Source: a virus
UHGV virus genome: UHGV-1366603
Reading direction: 5' to 3' (one strand)
DNA length: 64,000 nt
Shown here: positions 8,051 through 57,682 of the stretch, piece by piece
Numbering within the stretch: the first letter of the stretch is position 1
Layout of the letters: every line of letters begins with the position of its first letter
The notes under the pieces: generated by a model
The model's input: the letters and a program-made list of their open reading frames with translations, nothing else
Database searches by the model: none
What the model was told of the DNA's origin: nothing
Program-made: the position numbers and the translations under genes

Positions 8051-8080
8051 TAGGTCGTTCCTTAGATCGGAAATGTAATC

Positions 8081-8102
8081 AGATATATTTTACTTAGGTG
8101 AG
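8081..8102 (+). promoter_or_regulatory. candidate phage promoter motif AGATATATTTTACTTAGGTGAG, followed by a hairpin at 8104..8130
   Basis: Member of a recurring AT-rich motif family (see findings); sits at the head of the plus-strand block. Confidence 0.3.
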
Positions 8103-12369: not shown

Positions 12370-12400
12370 GGTGGGGTGTAAGCCCCACCTTTTATTTTTT
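12370..12400 (+). terminator. rho-independent terminator (GGTGGGG-loop-CCCCACC + T-run)
   Basis: 7-bp GC stem followed by TTTTATTTTTT directly after the stop of 11787..12365. Confidence 0.6.
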
Positions 12401-12425
12401 GTTCGCTAACATTAAAAATAATCTC

Positions 12426-12447
12426 AGATATATATTACTCAGGTGAG
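12426..12447 (+). promoter_or_regulatory. candidate phage promoter motif AGATATATATTACTCAGGTGAG, followed by a hairpin
   Basis: Contains TATATTAC; lies between the terminator and the first secreted-protein gene; followed by hairpin AGAGTTAA-GAT-TTAACTCT. Confidence 0.35.
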
Positions 12448-12494: not shown

Positions 12495-12956
12495 ATGAAA
12501 ATCTTCACTTCCTTTTTAATCGCCCTTTTCGCAATCGGATTCAATACTGCACACGCCGCAATCAATAGCTGGGAACAACTACCGAACCCAGGTCAGACTG
12601 TTTACGAAATTGAAGACACCGCCGGAAACGGACTGTCTATCAACTGTGACACTGAAACTGCGAATCGCAAATTTTACGGTCGTATGGTTTGGTATTACGG
12701 GGAACCTGTAGGTGCAACTAACGCTGAAGACAACACGATGGATATCGTCGTAAATGGCAAAACCTACAACATCCCTACGGTGGATGGCAGTGACAAAGCA
12801 GAGCTCGCTTGGGTGGCTTTCGTTAACGCTATCGGTAACGCCAAAACTTTCAGTGTGAACATCAATGGTAACGAAGCTGCTAACTTTACCGTAGAAGGCG
12901 AACGTCTGTCTGAAACTTTCTTCCAGAACTGTGGACACACCCGTCCTAACAAATAA
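12495..12956 (+). CDS. small secreted protein (signal peptide)
   Basis: N-terminus MKIFTSFLIALFAIGFNTAHA (hydrophobic core, AxA site); SD GAGGAG; two Cys. Confidence 0.65.
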   Translation: MKIFTSFLIALFAIGFNTAHAAINSWEQLPNPGQTVYEIEDTAGNGLSINCDTETANRKFYGRMVWYYGEPVGATNAEDNTMDIVVNGKTYNIPTVDGSDKAELAWVAFVNAIGNAKTFSVNINGNEAANFTVEGERLSETFFQNCGHTRPNK

Positions 12957-12978
12957 GTAATAATCTTTTTTAGAGTGC

Positions 12979-13371
12979 GTGAAAATGAATATCAGAACTA
13001 TACTTTATTCAATCATTATTTTCTGTGCAATCGGTATTACTGGCACTTATGCTTTCGGCGATTCGGACGTCCGCCATTACGAACCGGCTCCTGACTCGCC
13101 CATTATCAACCCGGATGAGTCCCCTACGTTAATGCGCAGTTTCGGTAAACTGCAAGTTTATCGCTTAGTACGTGGTGAAACGTGTACCGGATTACTCATT
13201 GCTGACACCCGTGCACAGGTCTACCAACGTCTGACGGATATCGCCTGCGAACAACCAAAAGTCATGTCGGTCAGTATTCATCCGTTAGAGGTCGGTAACT
13301 ATACTGCTGTGGACTTCTTCCATAATGCAGAACTGATTGGTCGTATCACTTTAAATCGTAGCGCTGAATAA
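12979..13371 (+). CDS. small secreted or membrane-anchored protein
   Basis: N-terminal hydrophobic segment ILYSIIIFCAIGITGTYAFG; start may be GTG 12979 or ATG 12985. Confidence 0.55.
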   Translation: MKMNIRTILYSIIIFCAIGITGTYAFGDSDVRHYEPAPDSPIINPDESPTLMRSFGKLQVYRLVRGETCTGLLIADTRAQVYQRLTDIACEQPKVMSVSIHPLEVGNYTAVDFFHNAELIGRITLNRSAE

Positions 13372-13389
13372 TTTAATGGAGAATTTACA

Positions 13390-13872
13390 ATGAAACGTTT
13401 ACACACCCTGATGCTTTTCGTGGCTATTCTGTTCACAGGCTTTACCTTTAACACAGAAGCGGCTACCGTAAAACAAGCACTTAGCTGTAACCCGGAAGCC
13501 TGGGCTGAACAACCTGGTGCGTGTCCTGACATCAATACGCTCTATACCGACGACGCGACTTATAAAGCCGCAATCGATAAAGCGTTGAAACCTGTCGGAC
13601 TAGACGGGTTATTCGGTAAAGATGGTGTAATGAATGGTCCTGGCGGCGATGTTATTCCCGTGCAAATCAACGGTAAAGTCTGGCTTGAGTCTACCGCTTG
13701 CAAAAGCAATGCTTGTGGTTGGGAATACATCACGACGCTTTATAACCCGCAGACCCATGTCGTGGTAGGTTACTATTACAACGTCGACCCAGGTTACCTG
13801 GTCTGGTTCGGCGATATCGGCGTTAACGAATTCGCCTATCTGGTTAAGAAATACGTAGCTACGGTTAATTAA
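13390..13872 (+). CDS. secreted protein, Ivy-like (candidate periplasmic lysozyme / lytic-transglycosylase inhibitor)
   Basis: Signal peptide MKRLHTLMLFVAILFTGFTFNTEA. Loop ..ESTACKSNACGW.. matches the Ivy-family ..SACKPHDCG.. arrangement (C-x4-C with Lys at position 2), but the loop His is replaced by Asn. Confidence 0.45.
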   Translation: MKRLHTLMLFVAILFTGFTFNTEAATVKQALSCNPEAWAEQPGACPDINTLYTDDATYKAAIDKALKPVGLDGLFGKDGVMNGPGGDVIPVQINGKVWLESTACKSNACGWEYITTLYNPQTHVVVGYYYNVDPGYLVWFGDIGVNEFAYLVKKYVATVN

Positions 13873-13887
13873 TTTAAGGAGTCTGTC

Positions 13888-14298
13888 ATGAAAACGTTTA
13901 TCAAAACTTTACTCGTTGCTGTAACTGTTCTGTTCTCTCTTAACGTAGCAGCAAAAACAATAAAGCTACCGGCGGGTATCAAATACGTCAACAGTACCGA
14001 TGAATTCTACTGCACTGAAATTGACGGCCTGTATTGCCAGACAAAGAATTTGTTTGAATACAAAGGTAACAGATATGTTTTCGTTGTTGAGCAAGGTGGT
14101 GCCTGGTGCTACGACAGCCCTATGTCGGTACTCAACCTGGAAACTTGGAAAGCACAGAAAATTGAATACAAAGACAACCAACTGTGTTCAGGCGAAAACA
14201 AACCGTTCTTCAAAATCAAAAATGGTGTGCCGACTGTAGGTATTATCGACACCTCTGGAGCACCCATCGTTGTAGCTCAGGACAAACTTAAAATCTAA
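13888..14298 (+). CDS. small secreted protein (signal peptide, multiple Cys)
   Basis: N-terminus MKTFIKTLLVAVTVLFSLNVAA; SD AAGGAG. Confidence 0.65.
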   Translation: MKTFIKTLLVAVTVLFSLNVAAKTIKLPAGIKYVNSTDEFYCTEIDGLYCQTKNLFEYKGNRYVFVVEQGGAWCYDSPMSVLNLETWKAQKIEYKDNQLCSGENKPFFKIKNGVPTVGIIDTSGAPIVVAQDKLKI

Positions 14299-14308
14299 GG
14301 AGTAAACC

Positions 14309-14698
14309 ATGCGTCTTATCTGCGCTTTGTTGGCGTTTTTCTCAATCGGAGTTATGGCTTCTACACACATCGACGATTTATTACTTACCCCGGCAACGAA
14401 CACAGACTATCACTACAACCCACCGGGTTTTGAAGTCTGCGAAGGCGATGCAGGCGAATGCCAAGAAGTTGGCGCAGATGGACGCTATATACTCGTAAAA
14501 GCAGACGGCGGGACAACCTGCCCTGCGGGTTATTATTTCGTACTTGACGCTGTAGCAAAAGAGGTACTTCCTGTAACGACCAAAACGTGTGACCCCACAG
14601 TTGTACTAACGCTTGCGAAAAGCAAATCACGTGACCGCCATCTTATCGTCATCGAAGAACGCGGTGAGATGCTAGGCGCTATCGAATTAGATTACTGA
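14309..14698 (+). CDS. small secreted protein (signal peptide, Cys-rich)
   Basis: N-terminus MRLICALLAFFSIGVMAS; SD TAAGGAG. Confidence 0.65.
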   Translation: MRLICALLAFFSIGVMASTHIDDLLLTPATNTDYHYNPPGFEVCEGDAGECQEVGADGRYILVKADGGTTCPAGYYFVLDAVAKEVLPVTTKTCDPTVVLTLAKSKSRDRHLIVIEERGEMLGAIELDY

Positions 14699-14709: not shown

Positions 14710-14746
14710 GACCCCGGTTCGTGCCGATTCGTCCGGGGTCCTTTTT
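14710..14746 (+). terminator. rho-independent terminator (GACCCCGG ... CCGGGGTC + CTTTTT)
   Basis: 8-bp GC stem with a large loop and a short T-run after the secreted-protein cluster. Confidence 0.45.
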
Positions 14747-16002: not shown

Positions 16003-18507
16003 ATGTTAAAAGTTGAACGTATTGTACTTAAAGGATTTACCGGAATGGGATTACACGAAATCGAAACCTTCGATTTTACTATCCATTCCCCGACCACCAT
16101 TATCCTCGGTGGTAACGGGTGCGGTAAGACCAGCTTACTGTCCGTGTTTCTACCTATCGCACCTTCGAAATCCGAATTCCGTGACGGGGGTTCTTACACC
16201 AACATCTGTTTGGTTAACGACCATCGTTACAAATTTAAGGTTGCACGTAAAGGCAACTCACTGGTTTGCGATATCGAGAACCTGACGACGGGTACCAAAA
16301 TCGTCGAACAAGGTAATGCGAAAGTGTATAACTCTCGTGTAGAAGAAATCACGGGCATTACAAAAGAGATTAAAGAGTTACTGAACGGAGAAGTGCTTTT
16401 AACGGATGCAGGAACGGAGCTGCGTCGTAAGTGGTTCTACCGTTTAAGTACGTCAGACTTAACTTACGCGTTAGGTTTTTATCAACGTTTACGAAAAAAC
16501 CTGACGATGCTAAACGGTGGTATTGAAATCACCAGCCGTAAAATTGCAGAGTTGCGTACCCGCGTAATTGATAACGAGGAAGAACGTCAGCAGTTAGCAA
16601 CACGGTTAAAAGCATTAGAAGTAGATTTACGTGAACTCAACAAACAGATTGAACAACTGCCTGGTCTGAATCGTGACGTTACGGTGGCAACTATTCAATC
16701 GCTATTGCTTAAAATCGAAGCACCGATTAATGCTATCTTGGAACACCGTGGCGGATTACCTACGGAAGAACAGGTAGAGGAAGCACGACGGATTGAAGCC
16801 ACTGCCCGTGAAGCGGTGGTCTCTGCTGAAACAGAACTATCCATGCTAAACAAAGATTTGTCTTTGTTGATGGACGAGTCCACTCGCCAAGATTACCTGA
16901 TGCGGAATCACGAGGGGTTAAAAAACACGGTTGCGAAACTGCGCGAGTTATTAAAGCAGTGGGACACTGAGCATCTTTTCCCTGAACTGTTTGCGGAGAC
17001 CGTTAACATCGACCAGCTTAAAGCAGCGACGGATGCGCGTGTCTGGGGACAACGTTTAGGAACAACGCTGGATGCTATTAAATCAACGGAACGGTTGAAC
17101 GTACTGGAAGAGAAACTGTTGACCTTAGACCAAAACTCATCTGGGTTGCGTGACCGGTTACAACGCGTTGAAAACGTATTGCAGAACCTCAACCACGAAC
17201 GGAATCACTATTTGGAAACTGCCGAGGTTGATTGTCCGCAGTGTCAATTTAAATTCCGTCCGGGTGTCCGTCGATCGCTGCCTGAATTGGAAGAAGCCAT
17301 TCGTGGTCAGATGGAGCAACGTAATACGTTACAGACTCAACTTGATTCCGTATTGCGAGACCGTACGGAATTAGAGTCAGACGTTAATTACATGCGTCAA
17401 GTACGGGAAATTGTTTTAACATACTCGAAAGACCCGGTATTGAGCTTGTTCTTTAAACGACTCCAGGAGCGGAATGTCTTTACGGATAACCGTAGTCAGT
17501 TTGGTAGTTTGTGCGCAGAGTTTGATCGTGAACTTTATTCTGCAATTGAGTACCACGAAACGAAACACCGTTTCGCTAAAGCGGAAAAAGAGTGGGAAAA
17601 TGCAGTTGCAGCGGTAGGTAACGTTGACGGTGCACTACAGCAGAAAATTGCCTTCCAGCAGGAACGTTTGGGTAAGGCAACAGAAACGCTCTCAGAGCGC
17701 CGTAGAGAGCACGCAGTTGCTAATGATACCTTTTGTTATCTAAACGAACTTAAAGCCACTGTAGACAATTTTAATGCGGTTTTTGAGCGTTTAGAGAACG
17801 ATGTTAAGGTAACATTAACCAACACGGTGGTCGAAACGTTATTAAACGCCCGAGAAAACAAGTTGGATGCGTTCACCACAGCACGGGAACGGTACCGTCA
17901 GATGGAAAACGAACTCAACCAACTTACTGCGTTAGAAAAGGAGTTATCAGATTTACAAGCGCAGCAATTCAATAACAAGCTGATGATTCAAGCGTTCTCA
18001 CCTGAGAAAGGGGTATTACGCAAATACTTCTACAACGCTATCGTGAGAATCACGGAATTGATGACGCGGTATATCGAACAAGTCTGGACCTACCCTATGC
18101 GGGTCATGCCGTGCGACTTAACCGACGGTGACTTAGACTACACGTTCCCAGTGCAGTTGAAAACCCATCCTGAGCCGGTACCTGACGTGCGGAAAGGGTC
18201 GAAAGCGCAGCGAGCCATCTTTAATTTGATGTTTCGTTTAACCGCTTACAAAGCCCTGAAACTTCATCAGTATCCGCTACTGTTGGATGAACCGTCAGAA
18301 GGGATGGATGAGGAACACCGAAATAACCTCGTCGGGTTTATTAAAACCCTGGCGAATTCCGGTGAGTTCTCTCAGTTACTGGTGGTATCTCACGAAGCAG
18401 AAATTCATTCAAAACTTAACGAAGCCGCATACTGTGTTATTGAACCTGAAGGCGTAACACTGCCTGCGGTATACAACGAGGGAGTAAAAATTGTCTACGC
18501 AAACTGA
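16003..18507 (+). CDS. Rad50/SbcC/gp46-like ABC ATPase with coiled coil and CPQC zinc hook
   Basis: N-terminal Walker A ILGGNGCGKTSLL; long coiled-coil middle containing ..VDCPQCQF..; C-terminal signature-like GSKAQRAIFNL, Walker B LLLDEPSEGMD and H-loop VVSHE. ATG at 16003 preceded by GGAGGTGG. Confidence 0.7.
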   Translation: MLKVERIVLKGFTGMGLHEIETFDFTIHSPTTIILGGNGCGKTSLLSVFLPIAPSKSEFRDGGSYTNICLVNDHRYKFKVARKGNSLVCDIENLTTGTKIVEQGNAKVYNSRVEEITGITKEIKELLNGEVLLTDAGTELRRKWFYRLSTSDLTYALGFYQRLRKNLTMLNGGIEITSRKIAELRTRVIDNEEERQQLATRLKALEVDLRELNKQIEQLPGLNRDVTVATIQSLLLKIEAPINAILEHRGGLPTEEQVEEARRIEATAREAVVSAETELSMLNKDLSLLMDESTRQDYLMRNHEGLKNTVAKLRELLKQWDTEHLFPELFAETVNIDQLKAATDARVWGQRLGTTLDAIKSTERLNVLEEKLLTLDQNSSGLRDRLQRVENVLQNLNHERNHYLETAEVDCPQCQFKFRPGVRRSLPELEEAIRGQMEQRNTLQTQLDSVLRDRTELESDVNYMRQVREIVLTYSKDPVLSLFFKRLQERNVFTDNRSQFGSLCAEFDRELYSAIEYHETKHRFAKAEKEWENAVAAVGNVDGALQQKIAFQQERLGKATETLSERRREHAVANDTFCYLNELKATVDNFNAVFERLENDVKVTLTNTVVETLLNARENKLDAFTTARERYRQMENELNQLTALEKELSDLQAQQFNNKLMIQAFSPEKGVLRKYFYNAIVRITELMTRYIEQVWTYPMRVMPCDLTDGDLDYTFPVQLKTHPEPVPDVRKGSKAQRAIFNLMFRLTAYKALKLHQYPLLLDEPSEGMDEEHRNNLVGFIKTLANSGEFSQLLVVSHEAEIHSKLNEAAYCVIEPEGVTLPAVYNEGVKIVYAN

Positions 18508-20695: not shown

Positions 20696-20795
20696 ATATT
20701 ATCATTAGGGCACACAACAAAGGAGTTCCAGCTGTCCGCGCCGTGATTTCGTTCTACGGAACACGGAAATGTATAAATCCAACTGGAGAACTAGT

Positions 20796-21482
20796 ATGTT
20801 TCGTATTTTCTTTCTTTTACTGGTAACACTTTTCGCGTTTAACGCATACGCATCCAAATCCGCACCCAGTGCCAAACACCATCGTGAATTCGAAATGATT
20901 CAAGACCGTTTCGAACGTGTAAAACCGTTGATTGTGGAAATCTCCCGAAAGCAGGGCGTCGATCCTAAGTTGATGACCACGCTAATCTATCGGGAATCGC
21001 GGTTTAATCCGAAGGCGTATAATCGAACGTCTAAAGCGCACAGTCTGGTTCAGATGCTACCGAGCACAAAGCGTAATTTGCTAAAACTCTACGGTGCCGA
21101 AATCGGACTTAGTCGTAACGCGGATTTGTATAATCCTCGTAATGCGGTGCTATTGGCTTCCGTCTACGTTAAACATTTAGAAAAGGGGTTGACTAAACGA
21201 CTCAAACGCAAGCCCACTATTGCAGAAATTGCATTGGCTTATCACTGGGGTGAAAGTGGTGCACACGCCAGGATTAAAAGCAAGTCTCGGGCAGCACAAC
21301 GAGAAATGGCGAGCTTTATGAAAGATGCAACGTTCTACAGTGCGAAAATCGACAAGCCTGTAGCATCTCGTCAGCTTGCGTTTGCGAAGAAACCAGAACG
21401 CCAGATTCAGTTAGCGGAAGTTAACCGAATTTGGGATACGATAAACACCAGTTTTCCATTTAAACAAGGAGTCACCCTTTGA
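20796..21482 (+). CDS. secreted soluble lytic transglycosylase (SLT domain), endolysin candidate
   Basis: Signal-peptide-like N-terminus MFRIFFLLLVTLFAFNAYA; SLT motifs ..LIYRESRFNPKA.. (catalytic Glu-Ser) and ..AHSLVQMLPST..; ATG at 20796 has GGAGAA upstream (ORF-track start at 20769). Confidence 0.65.
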   Translation: MFRIFFLLLVTLFAFNAYASKSAPSAKHHREFEMIQDRFERVKPLIVEISRKQGVDPKLMTTLIYRESRFNPKAYNRTSKAHSLVQMLPSTKRNLLKLYGAEIGLSRNADLYNPRNAVLLASVYVKHLEKGLTKRLKRKPTIAEIALAYHWGESGAHARIKSKSRAAQREMASFMKDATFYSAKIDKPVASRQLAFAKKPERQIQLAEVNRIWDTINTSFPFKQGVTL

Positions 21483-21988
21483 GCATCGTTGTAACCGATT
21501 GGTATAAAGGTATCACTAAGGCTACCCAAATTACTGCCCAGGACGTGTACAGTATCGTTCGTAGCAGTAACGAAGACCAGATAAAGTCCGACGAAGACTT
21601 TGCAACGCGTCATGAGTTTTACGATGCCCTTAAAACGGCTTTCGGTGATGACGAAGAAGAAGGTTTAGAGTTTGACTGGAACGTCAACCTTGCCTTGTTG
21701 TGGATTTGCGGATTACGTCCGAGTGTGAAAGACACGGAGCAAGGGAAAGTTCTGTTGTGGCGCTACACCGGTAAATACAATCCGAACCAGGTCTTTAAAG
21801 AAGCGTATATGGAAGCCACTGTAGAGTTACAGAATCTGCTGTTGGGTGAGAACACCTACTGTCAACGCAGCTTCCTGACGATTCTGGAGAAACTGGCGAC
21901 TACACACAAAATCTGGCGTCAAGCAGATGCCCCTGAACACATCTTCGTTCTGGAATATGCTGTGATTCCAAACCAACCGTTCTTTTAA
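21479..21988 (+). CDS. hypothetical protein (169 aa)
   Basis: TTG start overlapping the upstream stop, with AAGGAG upstream. Confidence 0.5.
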   Translation: MSIVVTDWYKGITKATQITAQDVYSIVRSSNEDQIKSDEDFATRHEFYDALKTAFGDDEEEGLEFDWNVNLALLWICGLRPSVKDTEQGKVLLWRYTGKYNPNQVFKEAYMEATVELQNLLLGENTYCQRSFLTILEKLATTHKIWRQADAPEHIFVLEYAVIPNQPFF

Positions 21989-22051: not shown

Positions 22052-22531
22052 ATGTTGAAGTTTATCTGGCGTTACCCAACCCGCTTTTGGTTCGTGGTAT
22101 TAGAGGTAATCACCGTTTTACTGTTAGTGACGTTCGTAAACGCCTCTACGAAACAAATGGTGATTTTCTGTGTATTCGTGGCTATACCGCTGTGGGTGTT
22201 TGCAAAGATTATTAAGTTTTACATGATAAGCTGGGCGAACTACACCTGTCCATTTAAACCCAGAGAAATCATGAACTGGTTGATGTATATCGAAGACCGT
22301 TTACCCGCTCAGTCTAAAACGTTAGGTTGGCAATCGATGTTGGATATTGCGCTAGAAACAAACGCAAAATTCCCTGGGTCAAAGAATCCTTATTTGCTGC
22401 TGGCTGTTATTGTTGCCCAGCAGAAACGTGCAGGCGAACGTTGGTTACCGAAAGAAGCGAAAGAGTATATTCGTAAACATCCGAAGGCTTTCTATTCCGT
22501 AGGTCAATGGCGTAACCTCCCACTCTTTTAA
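22052..22531 (+). CDS. membrane protein (two N-terminal TM segments), function unknown
   Basis: SD AAAGGAG; hydrophobic stretches FWFVVLEVITVLLLVTFV and MVIFCVFVAIPLWVFAKII. Confidence 0.6.
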   Translation: MLKFIWRYPTRFWFVVLEVITVLLLVTFVNASTKQMVIFCVFVAIPLWVFAKIIKFYMISWANYTCPFKPREIMNWLMYIEDRLPAQSKTLGWQSMLDIALETNAKFPGSKNPYLLLAVIVAQQKRAGERWLPKEAKEYIRKHPKAFYSVGQWRNLPLF

Positions 22532-26702: not shown

Positions 26703-27158
26703 ATGAAATTGCTGTTATTCATCATGATTTTGTGCGTGGGTTTGGTGAGTAATAGCTATGGAGAACCCGGTAAACGGCCATCCTATACTGCGTTACAACC
26801 TCCGCCAGCGCCGCCTATCATGCTAAATTGGAAGATTGATAAAGACGCGATGCGGGAATATGTTGCGGATGTGAATACATACGCTTATTACGTTTATCTC
26901 TACACACGAAACTTAAATCAACAAGCAGTCAAGCGCGGGTGGAATCCACCGATGTTAGCGCCTATCTGCGAACGGTTTGAAATTCCTAAATTACATTCCG
27001 TTCCAGAGAAGATGTTATTAGACGACAAAGCGTTAACGCCACAAGAAATCAGTCGCGATTTATCACGTAAACTGAATTCGTTGTTGTGGAATTATCGCTC
27101 TGACCGGCAAGCTTTATTAGACGCCTACGATCAGTATCTGACAACGTGTTTGAACTGA
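26703..27158 (+). CDS. small secreted protein (signal peptide)
   Basis: N-terminus MKLLLFIMILCVGLVSNSYG; SD TAAGGAG. Confidence 0.6.
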   Translation: MKLLLFIMILCVGLVSNSYGEPGKRPSYTALQPPPAPPIMLNWKIDKDAMREYVADVNTYAYYVYLYTRNLNQQAVKRGWNPPMLAPICERFEIPKLHSVPEKMLLDDKALTPQEISRDLSRKLNSLLWNYRSDRQALLDAYDQYLTTCLN

Positions 27159-29494: not shown

Positions 29495-30162
29495 TGCTGA
29501 TTGTTTTTAGTCATGCGTTATCGATGGCACCGAGTTATATTCAGATACGCTTTTCAGCAATTGCGCGTCAGCAGTGGGGCTTTAAAGCCCCCTATTCTGA
29601 CGACCACTATACTCTTGGTGAAGTAGCACTTGAACTTGCCTTACGCTCATTGTGGGAAATCATCGCATTGTATAATGCAGGTTGTGATATACCGAAAGAT
29701 TGTTTCCCGCAACGGTTGATTGCGCAAGGTACTACGAACACTTACGGTAATCCGGCATTGGTAGAAGAGTGCTTAGGCTACGCTAACCAGTCTGGGGAAC
29801 TGCAACACAACTTTAATCTGGTGATTAACAAAGTCTGGAGTGAGCTGGAAAGCTATCCTGAAAAGATTATCTGGTTTGATCGTAACCAATTCGTTAAGGA
29901 GGTGGCCAGTAAACGACCTGTTCGTTTAGTTACCTTAAAACCCGCCGACCTTGATTTGAAACAAACGTATCCCTTCCCGGAAGAAATTCGGCTTTCTCCA
30001 GAAACTGTAGGTCACACTATTTTCAAACAAGGTGACGCCTGGATATTGCCTCACGATCTAGACCGTTTCCTGCTCAACTCCGATCAGATTCACTCCGGCT
30101 ATGATTCTCTCGTGAAAGCGTTTCACATCGATCCCTATTTCGCTAAAAACTTTCTTAGATAG
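29494..30162 (+). CDS. hypothetical protein
   Basis: ATG overlapping the upstream stop (TGATG); ORF track 29491..30162. Confidence 0.55.
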   Translation: MLIVFSHALSMAPSYIQIRFSAIARQQWGFKAPYSDDHYTLGEVALELALRSLWEIIALYNAGCDIPKDCFPQRLIAQGTTNTYGNPALVEECLGYANQSGELQHNFNLVINKVWSELESYPEKIIWFDRNQFVKEVASKRPVRLVTLKPADLDLKQTYPFPEEIRLSPETVGHTIFKQGDAWILPHDLDRFLLNSDQIHSGYDSLVKAFHIDPYFAKNFLR

Positions 30163-30176
30163 ATATTATTCAGGTG
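30158..30176 (+). promoter_or_regulatory. candidate phage promoter motif AGATAGATATTATTCAGGTG
   Basis: Matches the recurring AGATAT-ATT-AC/TC-AGGTG motif, upstream of gene 30200. Confidence 0.3.
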
Positions 30177-38723: not shown

Positions 38724-38757
38724 TTAAAACCACCTCATTTTCAAAAAGAAGTCAGAC

Positions 38758-38775
38758 AGATATTATTTACGTGAG
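38758..38775 (+). promoter_or_regulatory. candidate phage promoter motif AGATATTATTTACGTGAG
   Basis: Member of the recurring motif family, ~20 nt upstream of gene 38796. Confidence 0.3.
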
Positions 38776-50545: not shown

Positions 50546-53500
50546 TTAACCTGCACGTCTAACGTTAAGCTGTCGTGCTGGCTGTTCAACGGACATTTGT
50601 CGTGATGCTGAACCTGCTGGTGCCATAGGTTGAGCCGATGCGGTGTTTTGTACCGGTTGTGGACGTTGCTTAAGGATCGTGACAATCTCTTTGAGATAAC
50701 CCGCCGATTCTTTCGCAACAGCCAACTGCTGAACACTAATCGGATCGCCACTGCTAAGTGTAGGTCCGTTTTGTGCATCAGAAGTAACCGCAGGTGCCGG
50801 TTTACTCGTCGCTGCTGCGCGCTGCACAGCACCTTCTTTCACCTTCTCGACATCTTCTTCAGGCAACCCTTCATTTCTGGCTCCAGTTGCAACAGTCTCC
50901 CCAATCATAGAGGCGTCACCGCCTGCACTACTACCGCCAGGTGACGGTACTGCTGGACCACCACTGGTTGCAGCTTTGACGTTGTCCGCACCCATTGCAC
51001 CTTTCTCTGCTAACGCTTCATCACGACGCGCAGCATTGGACGCAGGCAAGTTATCCGTCGCTCCAGAAATTGATGGATCGTTAGCTGCCCCTGCTGCTAC
51101 CGCCGGAGAGGAGGCAACCGCAGGCGTTAGCCCTTTCACCATGTCTTTCGTTGAAGCTGGGTTAGCCGCAATTTCGTTTGTCGCCACAGCACCCATACGG
51201 CGGTTCAGTTCATTAATAACTTCACCAACAGTACGAATACGAACAATCTGCTTGCCGCGCATTTCGTAGAAGACCCCCTTATTACCACTAAGGATTTGAG
51301 GAGTAATGCCTTCTGCTTTGTCGGCTGGCATGTTCGGATTCTGCCGCCATGCATTAAGGAACTTCTTACCACCGCCTGGGCCCAAGAAGTGATACAGATA
51401 CGCAACAGCCGGAGGCGGTTCTACACCACCTAAGTCTTTCTGCGCCTGCATGATATTGTCACGAATAAACTGTACCCCGAGGATGGTATTTGCCCACGGG
51501 TCGTACTGGTTTACTTGCGGTATACCGTACCGACGAGAGTACCCTTTCATCATTCCAGACCACGTTTTGTCAATGAACTGGAACAACCCTGCTGCTGACG
51601 CACCTGGGTTCTTGACACCATATTTGAAATCAGATTCGGCTTTCGCCATCGCAATCGCGACCGCAGGCGGAACACCTAAGGTATTTGCGACATCCGCAAT
51701 CATCGCTTTAACGCCTTCTACGTTAGGTGACTTACCATCACCCAGTTTGCTGATTGGATACTTCTCAGCCAAGGTTTTGTAATCACCTTCTTTGACGTCC
51801 CCGAGTTTAATCCCGGATTGGCCCGTAGAGAACTTCGCGTAATTGCTAATACCCATCTCACCCACAACTTGAGACAGATCACCCGGTGTACCGTAAGACG
51901 ACCCACCGTTTGGCAAGTACCCATCCTTAGACGCTGTACCCCAATCAACAACACCTTTGAAACGATCTTTGGTGTCTTCGTCGGTTTGGTACATTCTCGT
52001 CGCACGATCGGCTTTCTGCCACTTCGCACGTTTACCTGCTGCGGGTGTAGACCGCAGGGTATCACGAACAGCCAGGTCAGGTTCTTTGGACAGTTCTTTC
52101 AGGTTGGCAAGTTCAGTAGCAACAGAACCTGCGTCGGTGTTTGCTTCTTCACCCAGTGGGTTGAACGGAATCTCCCACACGGACTGACGAATACCACCCT
52201 TCATGTTGTAAGCGCCACGAATCATCAACGCCAATTCGTACATGAACCCACCGGATACTTTCAGTTCGGTAGGGTCTGCTTGCGGAATGTAACGTTTCAG
52301 ACCAACGACGTAGGTCATATACGCCGGTAAGAAACGGTTGTAGAACCAGTTCTTACAACGCTCCTCTTTAGGACCACCTATCAGGTCAGGCGAGATAACC
52401 GCAATGGCTTCTTTCCAGTTGCCTTTATAGGTACAGTTCTTCACATCAATGTCTTTCAACACGTTCTTCTCTAACAGTGTGAAAAGATTACGCGTTGTTT
52501 GGTTGATAGTAACCGCACCGTAGGTTTTCCACCTGACCGATTCCAGGTCTTCCAAATCACTTTTCTTCGGTAAGGAATGCCAGTCAACTTGGATTTGAAC
52601 CTGTTCAGTTCCGTCTTCCCAACCTTCGACCTTCGCAACTTTCTCGTTACGTTCAGCATCTGCATTCGCCAGTACCTGACTGGTTTCAGCAACGGACGCA
52701 ACTTTGTGGCCTTCGACAGCATCACGCATACCTGAACGTTGTTTCCGTTTGTCGTCAGTACGCATGTTGATTGACCGCCACACACGTTCCTGTGCTTCGA
52801 CAACCTCTTCCCCTGACAAGAACTCTGCCGGAGTAAAGGTAACGAAATCCCACGCTTTAGAGAACCAACCCTGGTTAACTTTACGCGGGTCAGTCAATGA
52901 ACGGAATTCCGCAGAATCTTTACCCATCTTCATTTTGTTGTAGAGGGTAATCATATCCGCTTTCGACACTTTCTTCGGATCACCAACATCTGCCAAAGCG
53001 ATGTCGTTATCCATCGACTTCAGTGCTGAAATCCAGCGGAGGTAAATCGGTGCGAAACGTTGTAGCATAAACGCAGTAAATGCTAACATCTCACCACGTT
53101 CTTCCAAGTTTACACCGAACCCTTCTGCGAGTTTCTTCACGTCTTCGGAAGACAAGCCACGTAATTGTGCTTCACCCCCTTCGGTATACGAGACGTAAGG
53201 TTTCAAAGCGTCTTCTAAATAACGGGCTTTCATACCGTCTTCAGAAGACCACTGGTCGTAGTCACGGAAACCGTATTGTGCCAGACGCATATAGTCGAGG
53301 TACTGTGCTTTCACACGGGTAGCGCATTTATACGCCCAATAACCCAGACCAGCGGCAGTCGCACCGATCGCAATTGCAGGCCAACCCACCGCAGCCACTA
53401 CCGTAGATGCAGCCGAGGCTACCGCAGTCACTGCCGGTACCGCTAAACGTTGTACAGCAAACTTACCAACGTTCCACGCTGCTTTACCGAGGAACCCGGT

Positions 53501-56500
53501 AGGTTTAAAAATACCCCACTTCGCAACTTTGCCCAGTATCGAACCCACCGTACCTAAGATACTCACGATTGGTCCTACTAACGGTAAGTCTTTGAGGAAG
53601 TCCATCACCCCGCCTTTACGTCCTTTCTGCTCAGCGGTTTTCTTGGCTTTCTCTTCTTCCTTAGAACGTCTACGACGACGGAAGAATTGGAAGTAGTCAC
53701 GTTTTTCATCGTTGGCTGCCGGTTTGTTACGTTGTCCGAACTTACTGAACATCGTACGAATCAGGCCATCAGGTGCACCAGCACGTTCCGCAGAGTCACG
53801 CATGGTGTTAAACCAGGACATTTCCTGGAGGTTAACCATCCGGTTTAAACGTTCCAATAATGCTGAACCAACACTCTTCGCTTTCTGCTTACCTTTGTTG
53901 ATAACGCGTCCTGCGGTATCCGTTGCGGTTTCGAAATCCTCCTTCGCTGCGTTAAACACGCGTGTTGGAGAAACCTTACCACGAGCGTACAAGTGTTGAC
54001 GGTAAAACTCCGCAACGTCATCATCACGACCCGCTAAACGCGACTCCGCCCGATAACGTGTGGCAATATCGTAGCGTGGGTCACGGAAGCTATCTACTGT
54101 TTCACCAAAGCGCCCACGGAAACGGTCAAACCACCCTTTACCCGCAGCGCCCCAACGAGACAGTCTATCGCCAACGCCATGACGGAAACGTGAGAATCGG
54201 TCACGTTGTCTGCCTCGCCAATCCCGGAAATTCTGGAAGTAATCTTTAAATCCGTCGCGGAAATCCTTAACACGGTTAAGCATCCCTTTGATAGATTTCG
54301 AGCCAACGTTTTTCTCCAGTTGCTCCGTCCAGGATTCATCTTCAGGCTCACCGTCTAAACGACGGTTAAGGAGTTTATAGATACGAATCAGGATATGGTT
54401 GGTCTTACGGCCATTCGACCAAGAGAACATGCTGAAGCCACCGCCAGAACCACCTTCCTTACGATTCTGCCACCACCGGGTAAGCGGGTTGTCGGTCGCT
54501 AACTCTTTGAATTTCTCAAAGCCACGTTTTGCATTGTTCCACAAACGAGCAGGCATTCCGGTTACGCGAGAAATCATGCTTTGTAAACGTGTTTTCTCAC
54601 TCCCCTCAGGAATCTCATTAAGCCACTCACGCGCTTTCTCGAAGATAGACGCTGCTCTTGGCGAGATTAGACCAATCAGTTTCTTCGGTAAGTTAACAGC
54701 TTTGTTTACTGCTGTACCTGCTTTACCGGAGATATACTGGAACAGGGCCTGGAGTTTACCGCCTTTATAGAAGCGCAGTTTACCCGCAGCCGCTAAGTCT
54801 GCCGCTGCGAGAATCAAGTTCCCGGCTTCGTCAACAATATCACGACCCAGCTTAATGTCGTCTAACGAGCGGAGTTGTACCAGCTTGTTGGTTTTAGGGT
54901 CAGCCTGATAATACTCACCTGCCTCTAAACGGCTTCCTTGTAAAACAACATTGCCTTTCTCGTCGTAGATGTCCCGAACACCAAGAACACCTTTCCCGAA
55001 GGCGACCGCCGAATTCCAGCCTGTGGACAACGTACCAGTAACTAAACCTTTCAGTCGTTCAAAAACACCTGGACCGTCAGATGGCCCACCGGAGAATTTC
55101 CCACGAATAAAACTGCCCAGTGACTGTAAACGCCCTTTCCCTCTCAGGAACATGTTCTTCGCAAAACGACCCGCGCCCGTACCGGTGTCCCAAAGTACGC
55201 CCGCCCAACGACGGAACAGCCCACTTTCACCAAGCACGATGCGTTTACGCTTGCGTTTGTTACCGGTGCTACCTGCATCTTCAGAAGCGTCACCCTCGTC
55301 ACCGTCACGACCACCACCTAAGCTGGCCAGCAGGATACCTTCCTCATCCATGTTCTTAACATGTTTCAGAATTTCCTGCACGGTGTTGGATTCGGACTTA
55401 TTACGAATAGCATCAACGATTCTATCAAACTGTTGCTCTAACCCTGCGGTGGTATCAGGACGTTCGCTTAGCAGTTCAACAAAGTTGGTAGATTTTTCAC
55501 CGTAGAGGACAGCAGCAAGTTGTCGTGCCGACAGTCCACGGCCACCGCGACCGCCTTTACCTTTAACGGTGTCAATTGTCGACTCGTCACCGGTTACGGA
55601 GGCGTCTACCCCTAAACGACGTAAATAGTCACCTAGCGCAGAACCGTTTTTCAGTTTGCGCTGGATTTCTTGTTCACGCGTTAACGAACGACCGGAACGG
55701 GTTTTCCCCATGGCCAGGTCGTTATACAGCGTATACGGATCGTTAATGTCTTTATCTACATCAAACCGATCGTTCTTCGCATCGTACTTAAAGATACCTG
55801 CATCACGTAACGCATTCTCACCGTAGATAATTGAAGCTTCGTCTACCGTGTTTTGACGTGCACGAATTGTTGACTGAATGGCCGAAATCTTACCAGCGAT
55901 TTCGTTGCTAAGTTCGTGATGACCGCCTGTCAGTTCTGAAGACCGTGCTTCTAAGACCGCCTGAATCGCTTCTACCGCGTTTGCATTCATGTAACGATAC
56001 ATGTGCATCGGGTCTTTCAGCAGACTGCCTACGTCGAACGCCTTACCTTCAGACGCACGTGATTCGATATAGTCCGCCAGCGCTTGGCGAGTTTTCGAAT
56101 CCAGAGTTTTGTCTTTGTCGATAAAGTCAACGGTTTCGTTAATGTACTGCTGTAAACGCTTCCGCTGTTCATCGTTCGCAACCGCTTTACGGACACGGTT
56201 GCCGACAACTTTACGGTCAATCATCCCACGCGTGGTTAAATCGTACACCTGGTCGTGGTGTTCGCCGTACCCGCGACGAATAGATTTGTTAATCTCCGTC
56301 AGCAAAGTCGGGATGACTTCCGTGATGCTAAGATACGCTTTACGGTCGAACTTCGCAGCGGCGGATAACGCTTCTGCTGAACGTTCTTCTAAAGCTAATC
56401 CCTCACGACGCAGCGGTGTCACTAACCCCATCTCGTGCATTAAACGGAAGACGGTGGCCAGTGGGCCGTCTATCTCACCAGCAATCGCCGAGTTAGAGAT

Positions 56501-57682
56501 AGAAGATAAGTTACCGAACCCGTAGCGTGCCAACTGAAGCCGTTTCATGACTTCTGGGTTCTTTTCTAACTCACTGCGTGTCCAGTTCTGTAAACGTTCT
56601 ACCTGAGGTTGTAAGAACCGTTTTGCTAACCAACTACCGGCAAACCCTGCGACTTTACCTCGGGAATTCGTACGACGACGTTCTGGCGACAGTGTAGAAC
56701 TGTCTTCCATGCCGAAGTCGTCTTCCTGACTCATTGACAGAACTTGTTCTAATATCCCGCGTCCGTCGCTGAAGATATTCGAAATCTTTTTCTTCGCGTT
56801 CTCACGAATCTGATCAATAAAGTTATCCGCGTAACGCAAGGGGTTCATCCATTCGGCAGCTTTACGTTTTACGTTAGCCCAACGAACTTCAGAGAATTCC
56901 TCTTTTGCGTAGTCCGGCAACGCGGTGTTTTTAACAATCGCTTCAAGTGCCGGGGTGTTACGGCTAAACTCATCCTGTTTAAGTTTAGCAATATCTTGCA
57001 ACGCGAATAACGTACGGTATTGCAGCTCTAGCTGTTTACGCTGAACGTTAAGCATTACCCCGCGACTTAAACTGGTCGTCAGGTTAACGTCTTTCGCAAT
57101 ACCGATAACCGTCTGGAACAGCGCATCGGACTTCATGTCCTTGATGGTGTCACGAAGACGGTCTTCTACCATTCCTTCCTGAACTTCACGTTGTTGTTCA
57201 GGTGTTTGTGGCGTACCTGCAAAAACAGAGTCTAACTCACGATCCATTAACGCTTGTTTAGGATCGTAATTCCCGTAATCGTACTGGTCGCTTTTCGCCC
57301 ACTTGTCGATCTTACGGGTTACACTGTCAGGCAAATACCGTTTTAGGGTTGGGCCTAACTGACGAGCTTGTGCCTTCACCACACGGGAGGTCTTTTCAAT
57401 CTCGTCTTTCGTATGGGCCAGAATGTCTTGACCTGCGGCTTTGACGTTCTTATAACCTTCATAAGCGTCAGTCGCCGGTTTTGGCATTCCTTTTAAAATG
57501 ACCTGATCACGTTTATTTTCGGGCCAGATAGTCGACAACGCCGACTTACGGGCAGCACGAAATGTGTCCATGACCGGGTTACGCGATTGGTCTTGTTGAC
57601 GAGGGGGCTCATCAAAATCGTCCCAGTCGTCCATGTTATCAAGATCGATTTCATCGAAATCGTCTTTACCTTTTTTAGCCAT
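50546..57682 (-). CDS. giant virion-type protein (2378 aa) with C-terminal lytic transglycosylase (SLT) domain
   Basis: SLT motifs ..AMAKAESDFKYGVKNPGASAAGLFQFIDKTW.. and ..AYLYHFLGPGG.. (coding ~51290..51720); acidic N-terminus; Gly/Arg repeats; Ala/Pro-rich C-terminal tail. Confidence 0.8.
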   Translation of the reverse strand: MAKKGKDDFDEIDLDNMDDWDDFDEPPRQQDQSRNPVMDTFRAARKSALSTIWPENKRDQVILKGMPKPATDAYEGYKNVKAAGQDILAHTKDEIEKTSRVVKAQARQLGPTLKRYLPDSVTRKIDKWAKSDQYDYGNYDPKQALMDRELDSVFAGTPQTPEQQREVQEGMVEDRLRDTIKDMKSDALFQTVIGIAKDVNLTTSLSRGVMLNVQRKQLELQYRTLFALQDIAKLKQDEFSRNTPALEAIVKNTALPDYAKEEFSEVRWANVKRKAAEWMNPLRYADNFIDQIRENAKKKISNIFSDGRGILEQVLSMSQEDDFGMEDSSTLSPERRRTNSRGKVAGFAGSWLAKRFLQPQVERLQNWTRSELEKNPEVMKRLQLARYGFGNLSSISNSAIAGEIDGPLATVFRLMHEMGLVTPLRREGLALEERSAEALSAAAKFDRKAYLSITEVIPTLLTEINKSIRRGYGEHHDQVYDLTTRGMIDRKVVGNRVRKAVANDEQRKRLQQYINETVDFIDKDKTLDSKTRQALADYIESRASEGKAFDVGSLLKDPMHMYRYMNANAVEAIQAVLEARSSELTGGHHELSNEIAGKISAIQSTIRARQNTVDEASIIYGENALRDAGIFKYDAKNDRFDVDKDINDPYTLYNDLAMGKTRSGRSLTREQEIQRKLKNGSALGDYLRRLGVDASVTGDESTIDTVKGKGGRGGRGLSARQLAAVLYGEKSTNFVELLSERPDTTAGLEQQFDRIVDAIRNKSESNTVQEILKHVKNMDEEGILLASLGGGRDGDEGDASEDAGSTGNKRKRKRIVLGESGLFRRWAGVLWDTGTGAGRFAKNMFLRGKGRLQSLGSFIRGKFSGGPSDGPGVFERLKGLVTGTLSTGWNSAVAFGKGVLGVRDIYDEKGNVVLQGSRLEAGEYYQADPKTNKLVQLRSLDDIKLGRDIVDEAGNLILAAADLAAAGKLRFYKGGKLQALFQYISGKAGTAVNKAVNLPKKLIGLISPRAASIFEKAREWLNEIPEGSEKTRLQSMISRVTGMPARLWNNAKRGFEKFKELATDNPLTRWWQNRKEGGSGGGFSMFSWSNGRKTNHILIRIYKLLNRRLDGEPEDESWTEQLEKNVGSKSIKGMLNRVKDFRDGFKDYFQNFRDWRGRQRDRFSRFRHGVGDRLSRWGAAGKGWFDRFRGRFGETVDSFRDPRYDIATRYRAESRLAGRDDDVAEFYRQHLYARGKVSPTRVFNAAKEDFETATDTAGRVINKGKQKAKSVGSALLERLNRMVNLQEMSWFNTMRDSAERAGAPDGLIRTMFSKFGQRNKPAANDEKRDYFQFFRRRRRSKEEEKAKKTAEQKGRKGGVMDFLKDLPLVGPIVSILGTVGSILGKVAKWGIFKPTGFLGKAAWNVGKFAVQRLAVPAVTAVASAASTVVAAVGWPAIAIGATAAGLGYWAYKCATRVKAQYLDYMRLAQYGFRDYDQWSSEDGMKARYLEDALKPYVSYTEGGEAQLRGLSSEDVKKLAEGFGVNLEERGEMLAFTAFMLQRFAPIYLRWISALKSMDNDIALADVGDPKKVSKADMITLYNKMKMGKDSAEFRSLTDPRKVNQGWFSKAWDFVTFTPAEFLSGEEVVEAQERVWRSINMRTDDKRKQRSGMRDAVEGHKVASVAETSQVLANADAERNEKVAKVEGWEDGTEQVQIQVDWHSLPKKSDLEDLESVRWKTYGAVTINQTTRNLFTLLEKNVLKDIDVKNCTYKGNWKEAIAVISPDLIGGPKEERCKNWFYNRFLPAYMTYVVGLKRYIPQADPTELKVSGGFMYELALMIRGAYNMKGGIRQSVWEIPFNPLGEEANTDAGSVATELANLKELSKEPDLAVRDTLRSTPAAGKRAKWQKADRATRMYQTDEDTKDRFKGVVDWGTASKDGYLPNGGSSYGTPGDLSQVVGEMGISNYAKFSTGQSGIKLGDVKEGDYKTLAEKYPISKLGDGKSPNVEGVKAMIADVANTLGVPPAVAIAMAKAESDFKYGVKNPGASAAGLFQFIDKTWSGMMKGYSRRYGIPQVNQYDPWANTILGVQFIRDNIMQAQKDLGGVEPPPAVAYLYHFLGPGGGKKFLNAWRQNPNMPADKAEGITPQILSGNKGVFYEMRGKQIVRIRTVGEVINELNRRMGAVATNEIAANPASTKDMVKGLTPAVASSPAVAAGAANDPSISGATDNLPASNAARRDEALAEKGAMGADNVKAATSGGPAVPSPGGSSAGGDASMIGETVATGARNEGLPEEDVEKVKEGAVQRAAATSKPAPAVTSDAQNGPTLSSGDPISVQQLAVAKESAGYLKEIVTILKQRPQPVQNTASAQPMAPAGSASRQMSVEQPARQLNVRRAG

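What the first reader, a model, noticed from the sequence alone, without database searches (positions are those of the whole stretch)
12495..14698. Five consecutive small signal-peptide proteins, apparently unrelated to one another
Each of the five adjacent genes (129-160 aa) opens with a classical Sec-type signal peptide, and several carry paired cysteines. Phage-encoded periplasmic proteins are uncommon and usually act at the envelope (superinfection exclusion, lysis control, receptor masking). Five in a row behind a promoter-like motif and bounded by terminators look like a dedicated envelope-remodelling module.
Basis: partly seen in the sequence, partly recalled or inferred. Interest (0 to 1): 0.55.

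Follow-up and report, generated by a model that had tools for sequence, protein, structure and literature searches.

The report
Jumbo-phage periplasmic cassette with Ivy-like inhibitor
Five neighbouring genes of a giant phage encode small proteins exported to the bacterial periplasm; one is a distant relative of the lysozyme inhibitor Ivy, the others resemble the E. coli island proteins YfjT and YfjS, and part of the block is shared with a gene pair found in about 40% of E. coli genomes that a preprint links to resistance against phage T7.

The parts
12370..12399 (+). Intrinsic terminator closing the upstream gene (GGTGGGGT-GTAA-GCCCCACC followed by a T-run)
   Evidence: 8-bp stem, dG -16.7 kcal/mol, z -3.8, 0 of 200 shuffles fold as well.
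12424..12447 (+). Clade-specific promoter motif TCAGATATATATTAC-TCA-GGTGAG, a probable early promoter read by the virion RNA polymerase
   Evidence: Four copies in the window, all 30-244 nt upstream of + strand genes. Conserved upstream of the cassette in SPN3US, SNUABM_29, SPAsTU, Huxley and (degenerate) Caitlin. 36 exact matches in IMG/VR, almost all on 107-246 kb contigs, and 0 in 596 Gb of bacterial genomes. Matches the description of jumbo-phage early promoters in PMC7598289.
12447..12462 (+). Short conserved hairpin (GAGTTAA/TTAACTC) just downstream of the motif, probably at the 5' end of the transcript
   Evidence: Read directly from the sequence; conserved in SPN3US, SNUABM_29 and SPAsTU. 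Function not tested.
12495..12956 (+). p1: YfjT-family periplasmic protein; signal peptide 1-21; conserved Cys51 and Cys146
   Evidence: Its counterpart in the near-identical contig L007 is tagged PF27224 YfjT. BLASTP against E. coli K-12 YfjT gives E 2e-13 and hhalign 96%. p1 and K-12 YfjT both fall in phrog_3429. Alignment A6. No match in 50,697 phage records.
12979..13371 (+). p2: ortholog of SPN3US gp180 / Asesino gp201; signal peptide; 2 Cys in the mature part; probable distant member of the YfjS-like superfamily
   Evidence: 45-50% identity to gp180/gp201; phrog_9424 at 2e-41 and a weak phrog_5248 hit; hhalign against the p5 family 69%, E 4.5e-5 over 77 columns.
13390..13872 (+). p3: divergent Ivy-superfamily protein; signal peptide 1-24; Cys33-Cys45 and the disulfide loop C104-K-S-N-A-C109 between two beta strands
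13888..14298 (+). p4: 4-Cys beta-rich periplasmic protein in the gp182/gp203 family, but 74% identical to an E. coli island protein (WP_000846711.1)
   Evidence: 35% identity to SPN3US gp182 against 74% to the E. coli O157 protein; hhalign against the p5 family 97% and against the gp181 family 98%.
14309..14698 (+). p5: 4-Cys beta-rich periplasmic protein; ortholog of SPN3US gp183 / Asesino gp204; distant homolog of the E. coli lipoprotein YfjS/YafY but without a lipobox
13383..14331 (+). Block shared at the DNA level with E. coli CP4-44-type islands: p3, spacer, p4, spacer and the first codons of p5
   Evidence: 77.4% identity over 959 bp to L022 and 79.7% over 944 bp to L023. The islands keep a 7-codon p5-like stub.
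14710..14746 (+). Intrinsic terminator after p5 (GACCCCGG, 15-nt loop, CCGGGGTC, then CUUUUU)
   Evidence: dG -20.6 kcal/mol, z -3.5, 1 of 200 shuffles folds as well.
20769..21482 (+). Context: endolysin candidate, an SLT lytic transglycosylase with an N-terminal signal or SAR-like segment (possible target or co-resident of p3)
   Evidence: PF01464 E 4e-14; flagged by the signal-peptide heuristic; syntenic with the annotated endolysins of Asesino and SPN3US.
50546..57682 (-). Context: 2,378-aa protein with an SLT domain (aa 1998-2083), the candidate virion-borne cell-wall-piercing enzyme of this phage type
   Evidence: PF01464 E 6e-8. The virion role is inferred by analogy with phiKZ-type tail lysins and was not tested.

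Best explanation
The five genes form one operon. It is probably expressed early from a jumbo-phage-specific promoter, and it sends five small disulfide-bonded proteins to the periplasm of the infected cell. The cassette is a mosaic. Its core (p2, p4, p5) consists of paralogs of a 4-Cys beta-rich family that all SPN3US-type jumbo phages carry at this position and that is distantly related to the E. coli island lipoprotein YfjS/YafY. In this phage lineage a YfjT-family gene (p1) has been added, and the second and third slots are occupied by an Ivy-like gene plus a p4 variant (p3-p4) that are about 77-80% nucleotide-identical to a gene pair in CP4-44-type islands of E. coli. The most likely function is protection of the infected cell against further phage attack (superinfection exclusion), by analogy with T4 Spackle. 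In this reading p3 binds the peptidoglycan-cleaving domain (SLT lytic transglycosylase or lysozyme) of incoming virions through its Cys-closed loop and blocks cell-wall penetration. The YfjS-like and YfjT-like proteins probably bind other envelope or phage targets that are still unknown. Shown here: the gene structure, the signal-peptide features, the family assignments, the synteny and the exchange with islands. Inferred: export, early timing, the inhibitory activity and the biological role.
Against: No activity was measured. p3 scores below the Pfam and NCBIfam Ivy thresholds, and its loop has Asn where Ivy and most relatives have His, so it may have a different target or none. The AF2 model is only moderately confident and is weakest in the loop. 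E. coli Ivy is only a weak inhibitor of lytic transglycosylases. The preprint used CRISPRi, which is polar, so the T7 phenotype could come from the p4-like gene downstream. I also could not confirm by sequence that Hypo_04657 is the same gene. The folds of p4 and p5 give no functional clue, and p1 and p2 were not modelled. Early timing rests on a motif, not on transcript data. Motif-like copies also occur at other island positions, which muddies the idea of a phage-specific promoter.
Confidence: 0.5

Rival explanations
1. Lysis-timing control. The phage's own endolysin is an SLT lytic transglycosylase with a signal or SAR-like N-terminus, so it reaches the periplasm before lysis. In this reading p3, and perhaps the other proteins, hold it in check until the proper time.
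For: The endolysin candidate 20769-21482 has an SLT domain and a signal-like N-terminus. Ivy proteins can inhibit lytic transglycosylases. Both proteins would share the periplasm.
Against: SPN3US, Asesino and the other relatives annotate a syntenic endolysin but lack p3. E. coli islands carry p3-p4 without any endolysin. The promoter motif suggests early rather than late expression. The cassette is about 6 kb away from the lysis genes and is separately terminated.
Confidence: 0.15
2. Periplasmic binders with targets other than cell-wall hydrolases. Possible roles are masking or modifying a receptor, blocking DNA ejection at the inner membrane (as T4 Imm does), or triggering or damping an envelope stress response. 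In this reading the Ivy fold serves only as a scaffold.
For: p3 lacks the loop His. Overproduction of YafY, the paralog of YfjS, activates the Cpx envelope stress response (PMC6538781). The p5 fold is a generic beta-meander binding module. Four of the five proteins show no link to lysozyme inhibitors.
Against: The Cys-closed loop, the preceding Lys and the following Gly of the Ivy inhibitory hairpin are strictly conserved across the p3 family. That conservation is hard to explain if the loop is not the working part. No direct evidence points to any alternative target.
Confidence: 0.2
3. Passenger genes. The cassette is mobile cargo that benefits bacterial carriers (for example tolerance to animal lysozyme) and is merely tolerated in the phage, with no role in lytic infection.
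For: p1, p3 and p4 have their closest relatives in bacterial chromosomes. The pair is fixed in about 41% of complete E. coli genomes.
Against: The cassette slot is conserved across at least four genera of strictly lytic jumbo phages, with intact signal peptides and cysteines. It has its own phage-specific promoter. A lytic phage gains nothing from long-term host fitness.
Confidence: 0.1
4. The N-termini are membrane anchors or chance hydrophobic stretches, and the proteins are not exported.
For: No signal-peptide predictor or experiment was available. The gp181-family members have longer N-terminal extensions that could act as signal anchors.
Against: All five have the n-h-c architecture with small-x-small sites. 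The mature parts have even cysteine counts that are conserved in homologs. They are homologous to Ivy (periplasmic) and YfjS (a lipoprotein).
Confidence: 0.03

Closest known systems
Ivy (inhibitor of vertebrate lysozyme; Pfam PF08816; PDB 1GPQ, 1XS0, 1UUZ)
   Different: p3 scores below the family thresholds. Its loop is CKSNAC rather than CKPHDC (no His). It has an extra N-terminal disulfide and helices. It is encoded by a lytic jumbo phage and by genomic islands rather than at the chromosomal ivy locus. Its target is unknown.
T4 Spackle (gp61.3), the periplasmic inhibitor of the gp5 tail lysozyme
   Same: It is the proposed working analog: an early phage gene whose product has a cleaved signal peptide, is disulfide-bonded in the periplasm, and blocks the cell-wall-cutting enzyme of superinfecting phages.
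   Different: There is no homology. Spackle is an alpha-helical bundle that acts allosterically, whereas Ivy-type inhibitors insert a loop into the active site (PMC7677548). The exclusion function of p3 has not been tested.
E. coli YfjS/YafY (PF20494) and YfjT (PF27224) of the cryptic prophages CP4-57 and CP4-6
   Same: p1 is a YfjT homolog. The p5 family, and through it p4 and p2, is distantly homologous to YfjS. In the islands the two families also sit next to each other, as they do in the phage.
   Different: The phage proteins have signal-peptidase-I type signals and no lipobox, so they are predicted to be soluble rather than lipid-anchored. Sequence identity is low (about 20-26%). Neither E. 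coli protein has a known function beyond Cpx activation by overproduced YafY.
E. coli island pair WP_000775497.1 / WP_000846711.1 (probably the 'Hypo_04657' of the PHAGEPACK preprint)
   Same: 74% amino-acid identity to p3 and to p4, the same gene order, spacers and ribosome-binding sites, and 77-80% DNA identity. A reported anti-T7 phenotype.
   Different: The pair lies in a bacterial island between patatin and DUF932 genes. Its loop is CKANTC/CKAHAC/CKANAC in most copies (CKSNAC in the closest copy). The p5 gene is reduced to a 7-codon stub.

Membership tests
Ivy family (PF08816 / NF007443) | Sequence match above the curated family threshold | tested here: not met
   Pfam 15.1 bits against a cut-off of 21. 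NCBIfam 19.9 bits against 180 for the equivalog model. However, 26 of 30 relatives found with the p3 profile match Pfam Ivy at E<=0.01, best 8e-12, so superfamily membership is supported by transitivity.
Ivy family (PF08816 / NF007443) | Ivy fold: antiparallel beta sheet flanked by helices | tested here: met
Ivy family (PF08816 / NF007443) | Disulfide-closed protruding loop CKPHDC whose His enters the lysozyme active site | tested here: inconclusive
   Both Cys, the Lys and the following Gly are invariant in the p3 family and align with Ivy's loop. The His is replaced by Asn in the phage copy (CKSNAC). Island copies have CKAHAC, CKANAC or CKANTC, and distant relatives have CExHNC. That the His is the residue entering the active site is recalled from the Ivy structure papers; I could not open them.
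Ivy family (PF08816 / NF007443) | Periplasmic location | tested here: met
   Predicted only: the n-h-c signal peptide with TEA|A.
Ivy family (PF08816 / NF007443) | Inhibition of C-type lysozyme or lytic transglycosylase | not testable with these tools
   Requires purified protein.
YfjT family (PF27224) | Sequence match to the family, with signal peptide and two conserved Cys | tested here: met
   Precomputed PF27224 tag on the p1 counterpart in L007. BLASTP against K-12 YfjT E 2e-13 and hhalign 96%. Cys51 and Cys146 are invariant. Shared phrog_3429. The model is absent from my local Pfam copy, so the gathering score could not be checked.
YfjS/YafY lipoprotein domain (PF20494) | Sequence match above the Pfam threshold | tested here: not met
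   No PF20494 hit for p2, p4 or p5 at E<=1. Only profile-level similarity: p5 family against YfjS 88%, E 3e-6, and YfjS hits the p5 PHROG at 4e-5. These proteins are distant homologs, not members.
YfjS/YafY lipoprotein domain (PF20494) | Lipobox and inner-membrane lipoprotein anchoring | tested here: not met
   YfjS has LSAC. p2, p4 and p5 have no L-x-x-C lipobox at the end of the h-region; the Cys residues in the p2 and p5 signal peptides are not in a lipobox context.
T4 Spackle-type superinfection exclusion | Early phage gene, exported product, inhibits the tail-associated wall hydrolase of incoming phage | not testable with these tools
   Only the first two features could be approached, through the promoter motif and the signal peptide. 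There is no homology to Spackle.

The most novel reading that the evidence does not exclude
The E. coli islands carry recognisable copies of the jumbo-phage early-promoter motif directly upstream of the captured Ivy-like/p4-like cassette. They also carry motif-like copies upstream of other island operons. The island genes may therefore be wired to the virion RNA polymerase of SPN3US-type jumbo phages, so that an infecting phage itself switches on a periplasmic defence. A second untested possibility: the YfjS-like paralogs, each modelled as a two-blade beta meander, might assemble into a hetero-oligomeric propeller-like ring in the periplasm.
Probability: 0.12. Interest if true: 0.85.

Novelty: new variant of a known kind. 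Interest (0 to 1): 0.62.

Why it matters
If this reading is right, it gives giant nucleus-forming phages a periplasmic exclusion system built from Ivy-like and YfjS/YfjT-like proteins. That would be a second, evolutionarily independent solution to the problem T4 solves with Spackle. It would also give a first testable function to two long-standing E. coli y-gene families (YfjS/YafY and YfjT), and to a 'hypothetical' gene pair present in about 41% of complete E. coli genomes. It shows repeated gene traffic between lytic jumbo phages and CP4-type islands. This matters for phage therapy, because such island genes could limit the host range of T7-like or jumbo phages.

Tried and rejected
1. Nucleotide search of the region, and tblastn of p1 and p3, against 50,697 phage genomes found nothing.
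2. PADLOC defence models gave no hit for any of the five proteins.
3. Sigma-70 promoter scan: nothing above chance, so a host-type promoter was rejected.
4. The short motif TATATTAC alone is not enriched. Only the 15-24-nt version is informative.
6. Sequence profiles of the 4-Cys family and the YfjT family against the PDB gave only spurious hits: ThreeFoil, and a coronavirus spike fragment.
7. The BFVD fold search with p3 found no viral Ivy-like structure.
9. Base composition did not indicate the direction of transfer.
10. Literature searches for SPN3US gp180-183 and for YfjT found nothing useful.
11. The Ivy structure paper (PMC1847508) is not held.
12. A text search for the motif string returned only unrelated papers.
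Full report
**What is there.** The region 12495-14698 holds five + strand ORFs at exactly the coordinates given. They are p1 (153 aa), p2 (130 aa from GTG 12979, or 128 aa from ATG 12985), p3 (160 aa), p4 (136 aa) and p5 (129 aa). Spacers of 22, 18, 15 and 10 nt separate them. p1, p3, p4 and p5 have clear Shine-Dalgarno sequences.

Every N-terminus has one or two K/R residues and a 12-residue hydrophobic core (mean Kyte-Doolittle about 2.5-2.6). Each also has a small-x-small cleavage motif: AHA|A, TYA|F, TEA|A, VAA|K, VMA|S. None has a lipobox. A simple heuristic applied to 66 gene-like ORFs in the window flags seven, and five of those are these adjacent genes. My rough estimate for such a run by chance is about 1e-4. 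The mature parts carry 2, 2, 4, 4 and 4 cysteines, all conserved in homologs, as expected for disulfide-bonded periplasmic proteins. SignalP could not be run, so export is predicted, not shown.

**Boundaries.** A strong intrinsic terminator (12370-12389 plus a T-run; dG -16.7, z -3.8) closes the upstream gene. A second one (14710-14740 plus a U-run; dG -20.6, z -3.5) follows p5. No sigma-70 promoter stands out.

TCAGATATATATTAC-TCAGGTGAG at 12424-12447 is one of four copies in the window, each on the + strand and 30-244 nt upstream of a gene. The same element precedes the cassette in SPN3US, SNUABM_29, SPAsTU, Huxley and, in degenerate form, Caitlin, although the neighbouring proteins are only about 50% identical. 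The 21-specified-base version has 36 exact matches in IMG/VR. All but one lie on 107-246 kb contigs, with up to four copies per genome. It has no match in 596 Gb of bacterial genomes.

A review of jumbo-phage RNA polymerases states that such clade-specific, highly conserved AT-rich motifs upstream of presumed early operons have proved to be early promoters read by the virion RNA polymerase in every profiled case. It adds that middle and late promoters cannot be found this way (PMC7598289). The cassette is therefore probably an early operon. This is an inference from the motif, not from transcript data.

**Which genome.** The window has no nucleotide match among deposited phages. Its SMC/SbcC-like protein (16003-18507) is 69% identical to that of Erwinia phage Asesino and 58% to Salmonella phage SPN3US. 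It is therefore a new member of the SPN3US/phiEaH2 group of phiKZ-like jumbo phages. Near-identical contigs exist in public sequencing runs (L007-L009).

**The cassette in relatives.** SPN3US (gp180-183), Asesino (gp201-204), SNUABM_29, SPAsTU, Huxley, Caitlin, Wellington and SNUABM_11 all carry three to five small signal-peptide genes in the same slot, upstream of two conserved genes and the SMC-like gene. p2, p4 and p5 are orthologs of gp180, gp182 and gp183 (45-50%, 35% and 48-51% identity). p3 occupies the slot of gp181 without any sequence similarity to it, and p1 is an extra gene.

**Relatedness among the five.** Profile-profile comparison links the p4 and p5 families (97%, E 1e-10). It also links the displaced gp181 family to both (98% and 96%), and a further Wellington family to p5 (75%). 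p2 is linked to p5 at 69%, E 4.5e-5 over 77 columns. Four cysteines align across these families. Only p1 and p3 are unrelated to the rest.

**p3 is an Ivy-superfamily protein.** Several independent lines agree.
- Sequence profiles: Pfam Ivy E 0.025 and NCBIfam Ivy E 5e-4 over residues 51-133.
- PDB: a p3-family profile finds Ivy entries 1GPQ and 1XS0, aligned on the Cys loop, but weakly (E 0.7).
- Bridging: an exhaustive profile search of 1.84 billion proteins gives 59 relatives. Of the 30 full-length distant ones, 26 are themselves recognised by Pfam Ivy (best E 8e-12).

The loop C104-K-S-N-A-C109-G lies between two beta strands, like Ivy's CKPHDC. The Cys, Lys and Gly residues are invariant in the family, but the central residues vary: CKAHAC, CKANAC, CKANTC, CKSNAC. 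The phage copy has Asn where Ivy has His. p3 is thus a divergent superfamily member, below the curated thresholds, and its target may differ.

**p1, p4 and p5.** p1 is a YfjT-family protein. Its counterpart in the near-identical contig L007 carries a precomputed PF27224 tag. BLASTP against K-12 YfjT gives E 2e-13 and hhalign 96%. Both proteins fall in the same PHROG, and both cysteines are conserved.

The p5 family is distantly homologous to the inner-membrane lipoprotein YfjS (PF20494). The evidence is hhalign 88%, E 3e-6, the CR5 member at BLASTP 1e-6, and a YfjS hit on the p5 PHROG. p5 has no lipobox.

**Exchange with bacterial islands.** p3 homologs (63-86% identity) lie in E. coli chromosomes inside CP4-44/CP4-57-type islands. 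They sit between dynamin-like GTPase, YjcZ/RdcB and patatin genes on one side and DUF932, antirestriction, RadC, DUF987 and CbeA/CbtA genes on the other.

In O157 the p3 homolog (74% identity, loop CKANTC) is followed at once by a protein 74% identical to p4 over its full length. That is far closer than p4 is to SPN3US gp182 (35%). At the DNA level the block (p3, spacer, p4, spacer, first codons of p5) is 77.4% identical over 959 bp to L022 and 79.7% over 944 bp to L023. The islands retain a 7-codon p5-like stub.

The pair is present en bloc in 2,248 of 5,426 complete E. coli genomes, always annotated as two hypothetical proteins.

In Yersinia rohdei and Pantoea ananatis the same island slot holds a gp181-family protein (68% identical to Asesino gp202) followed by a YfjT gene. 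In K-12 CP4-57 it holds yfjS-yfjT. All the cassette families are therefore shared between SPN3US-type jumbo phages and this class of islands, and at least two separate exchanges are visible.

The islands also carry the 15-nt promoter motif, exact or with one mismatch, about 55-65 nt upstream of their cassette. That suggests capture of a phage cassette together with its promoter. Motif-like copies at other island positions leave this open.

**Function.** Nothing was measured here. The best-supported reading is an early periplasmic defence of the infected cell against further phage attack.

Ivy-type inhibitors work by inserting a loop into the active site of lysozymes (PMC7677548). P. aeruginosa Ivy proteins inhibit the lytic transglycosylase MltB in vitro, and E. 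coli Ivy is a weak inhibitor of such enzymes (PMC10139938). This phage encodes an SLT-domain endolysin with a signal-like N-terminus (20769-21482) and a 2,378-aa protein with an SLT domain. Enzymes of that class are therefore what incoming sister phages would bring.

A preprint reports an E. coli O121 protein with an Ivy-like domain and a CKANTC loop whose knockdown increases T7 fitness and plating (bioRxiv 10.1101/2024.04.20.590424). That loop is identical to the one in p3 homologs P0009/P0015 and the O157 protein. CRISPRi is polar, so the p4-like gene may contribute. I could not verify by sequence that it is the same gene.

T4 Spackle sets the precedent for an early, exported, disulfide-bonded inhibitor of a tail lysozyme that gives superinfection exclusion.

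**Rival readings.** I give about 0.5 to the exclusion model as a whole. Within that, I am about 0.85 confident that p3 is Ivy-like and about 0.5 confident that it inhibits a wall hydrolase.
- Control of the phage's own exported endolysin: 0.15. Relatives have the endolysin without p3, and islands have p3 without an endolysin.
- Binders of other envelope targets or stress-response modulators: 0.2.
- Passenger cargo: 0.1.
- Non-exported proteins: 0.03.

**Novelty and verdict.** Periplasmic inhibition of wall hydrolases as a phage exclusion mechanism is known (Spackle), and the Ivy fold is known. The E. coli homolog has been flagged once, in a preprint. As far as these tools show, the following are new:
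- an Ivy-superfamily gene in a phage (no match in 50,697 phage genomes or in BFVD);
- the recognition that the conserved jumbo-phage cassette belongs to the YfjS/YfjT families;
- the en-bloc exchange with a gene pair found in 41% of complete E. coli genomes;
- the shared promoter motif.

I rate it a new variant of a known kind, with interest 0.62.

Noticed in passing
window 8079-8093, 12424-12438, 30155-30169, 38752-38766; L022 6738, L023 5933, L003-L006 7033, L004/L005 1440, L021 15456, L019 5127: A 15-24-nt motif (TCAGATATATATTAC + 3 nt + GGTGAG) is a multi-copy element specific to SPN3US-type jumbo phages and is probably the early promoter. Exact or near-exact copies also occur in sense orientation in CP4-type islands of E. 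coli, Shigella and Pantoea, upstream of the captured cassette and of other island operons. I could not decide whether this reflects capture, a shared regulatory element, or phage-triggered expression of island genes.
   Followed up: partly
L002 4786-4870 (SPN3US), L010 2317-2400, L011 2328-2415: In SPN3US-type relatives the promoter motif is followed by a conserved hairpin and then a strong intrinsic terminator before the first cassette gene. This could be a short RNA or an attenuator. In this window the terminator lies upstream of the motif instead.
   Followed up: no
window 20769-21482, 21479-21988, 22052-22531, 26703-27158: The endolysin candidate is an SLT lytic transglycosylase with a signal or SAR-like N-terminus. 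Genes downstream of it include one with an N-terminal transmembrane segment, and 26703-27158 encodes another signal-peptide protein. Together these may form a lysis cassette.
   Followed up: partly
window 50546-57682 (- strand): A 2,378-aa protein has an SLT domain at residues 1998-2083. It is the likely virion-borne cell-wall-piercing protein of this phage type.
   Followed up: partly
L022 6806-7489 (E. coli O157 WP_000775497.1): The RefSeq 227-aa ORF appears to be mis-started. Its first 64 residues are a remnant of a 180-aa YfjS-like gene that is intact in other strains (L003 7098-7640; hhalign 98.5%). The Ivy-like protein proper starts at Met66 with its own signal peptide.
   Followed up: yes
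L017 7001-8014 (Yersinia rohdei), L019 7001-7998 (Pantoea ananatis): A chromosomal protein 68% identical to Asesino gp202 sits next to a YfjT gene in a CP4-57-type island. This is a second, independent exchange between jumbo phages and islands.
   Followed up: partly
L003-L006 and L022-L023, upstream of the cassette: Dynamin-like GTPase, YjcZ/RdcB-family and patatin-like phospholipase genes always precede the island cassette. They may form a defence system of their own. They were not scanned against PADLOC.
   Followed up: no
proteins P0059-P0064 (Salmonella phage SPFM records): These database entries look like block-scrambled versions of SPN3US gp181, which suggests an annotation or assembly artefact in those records.
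   Followed up: no
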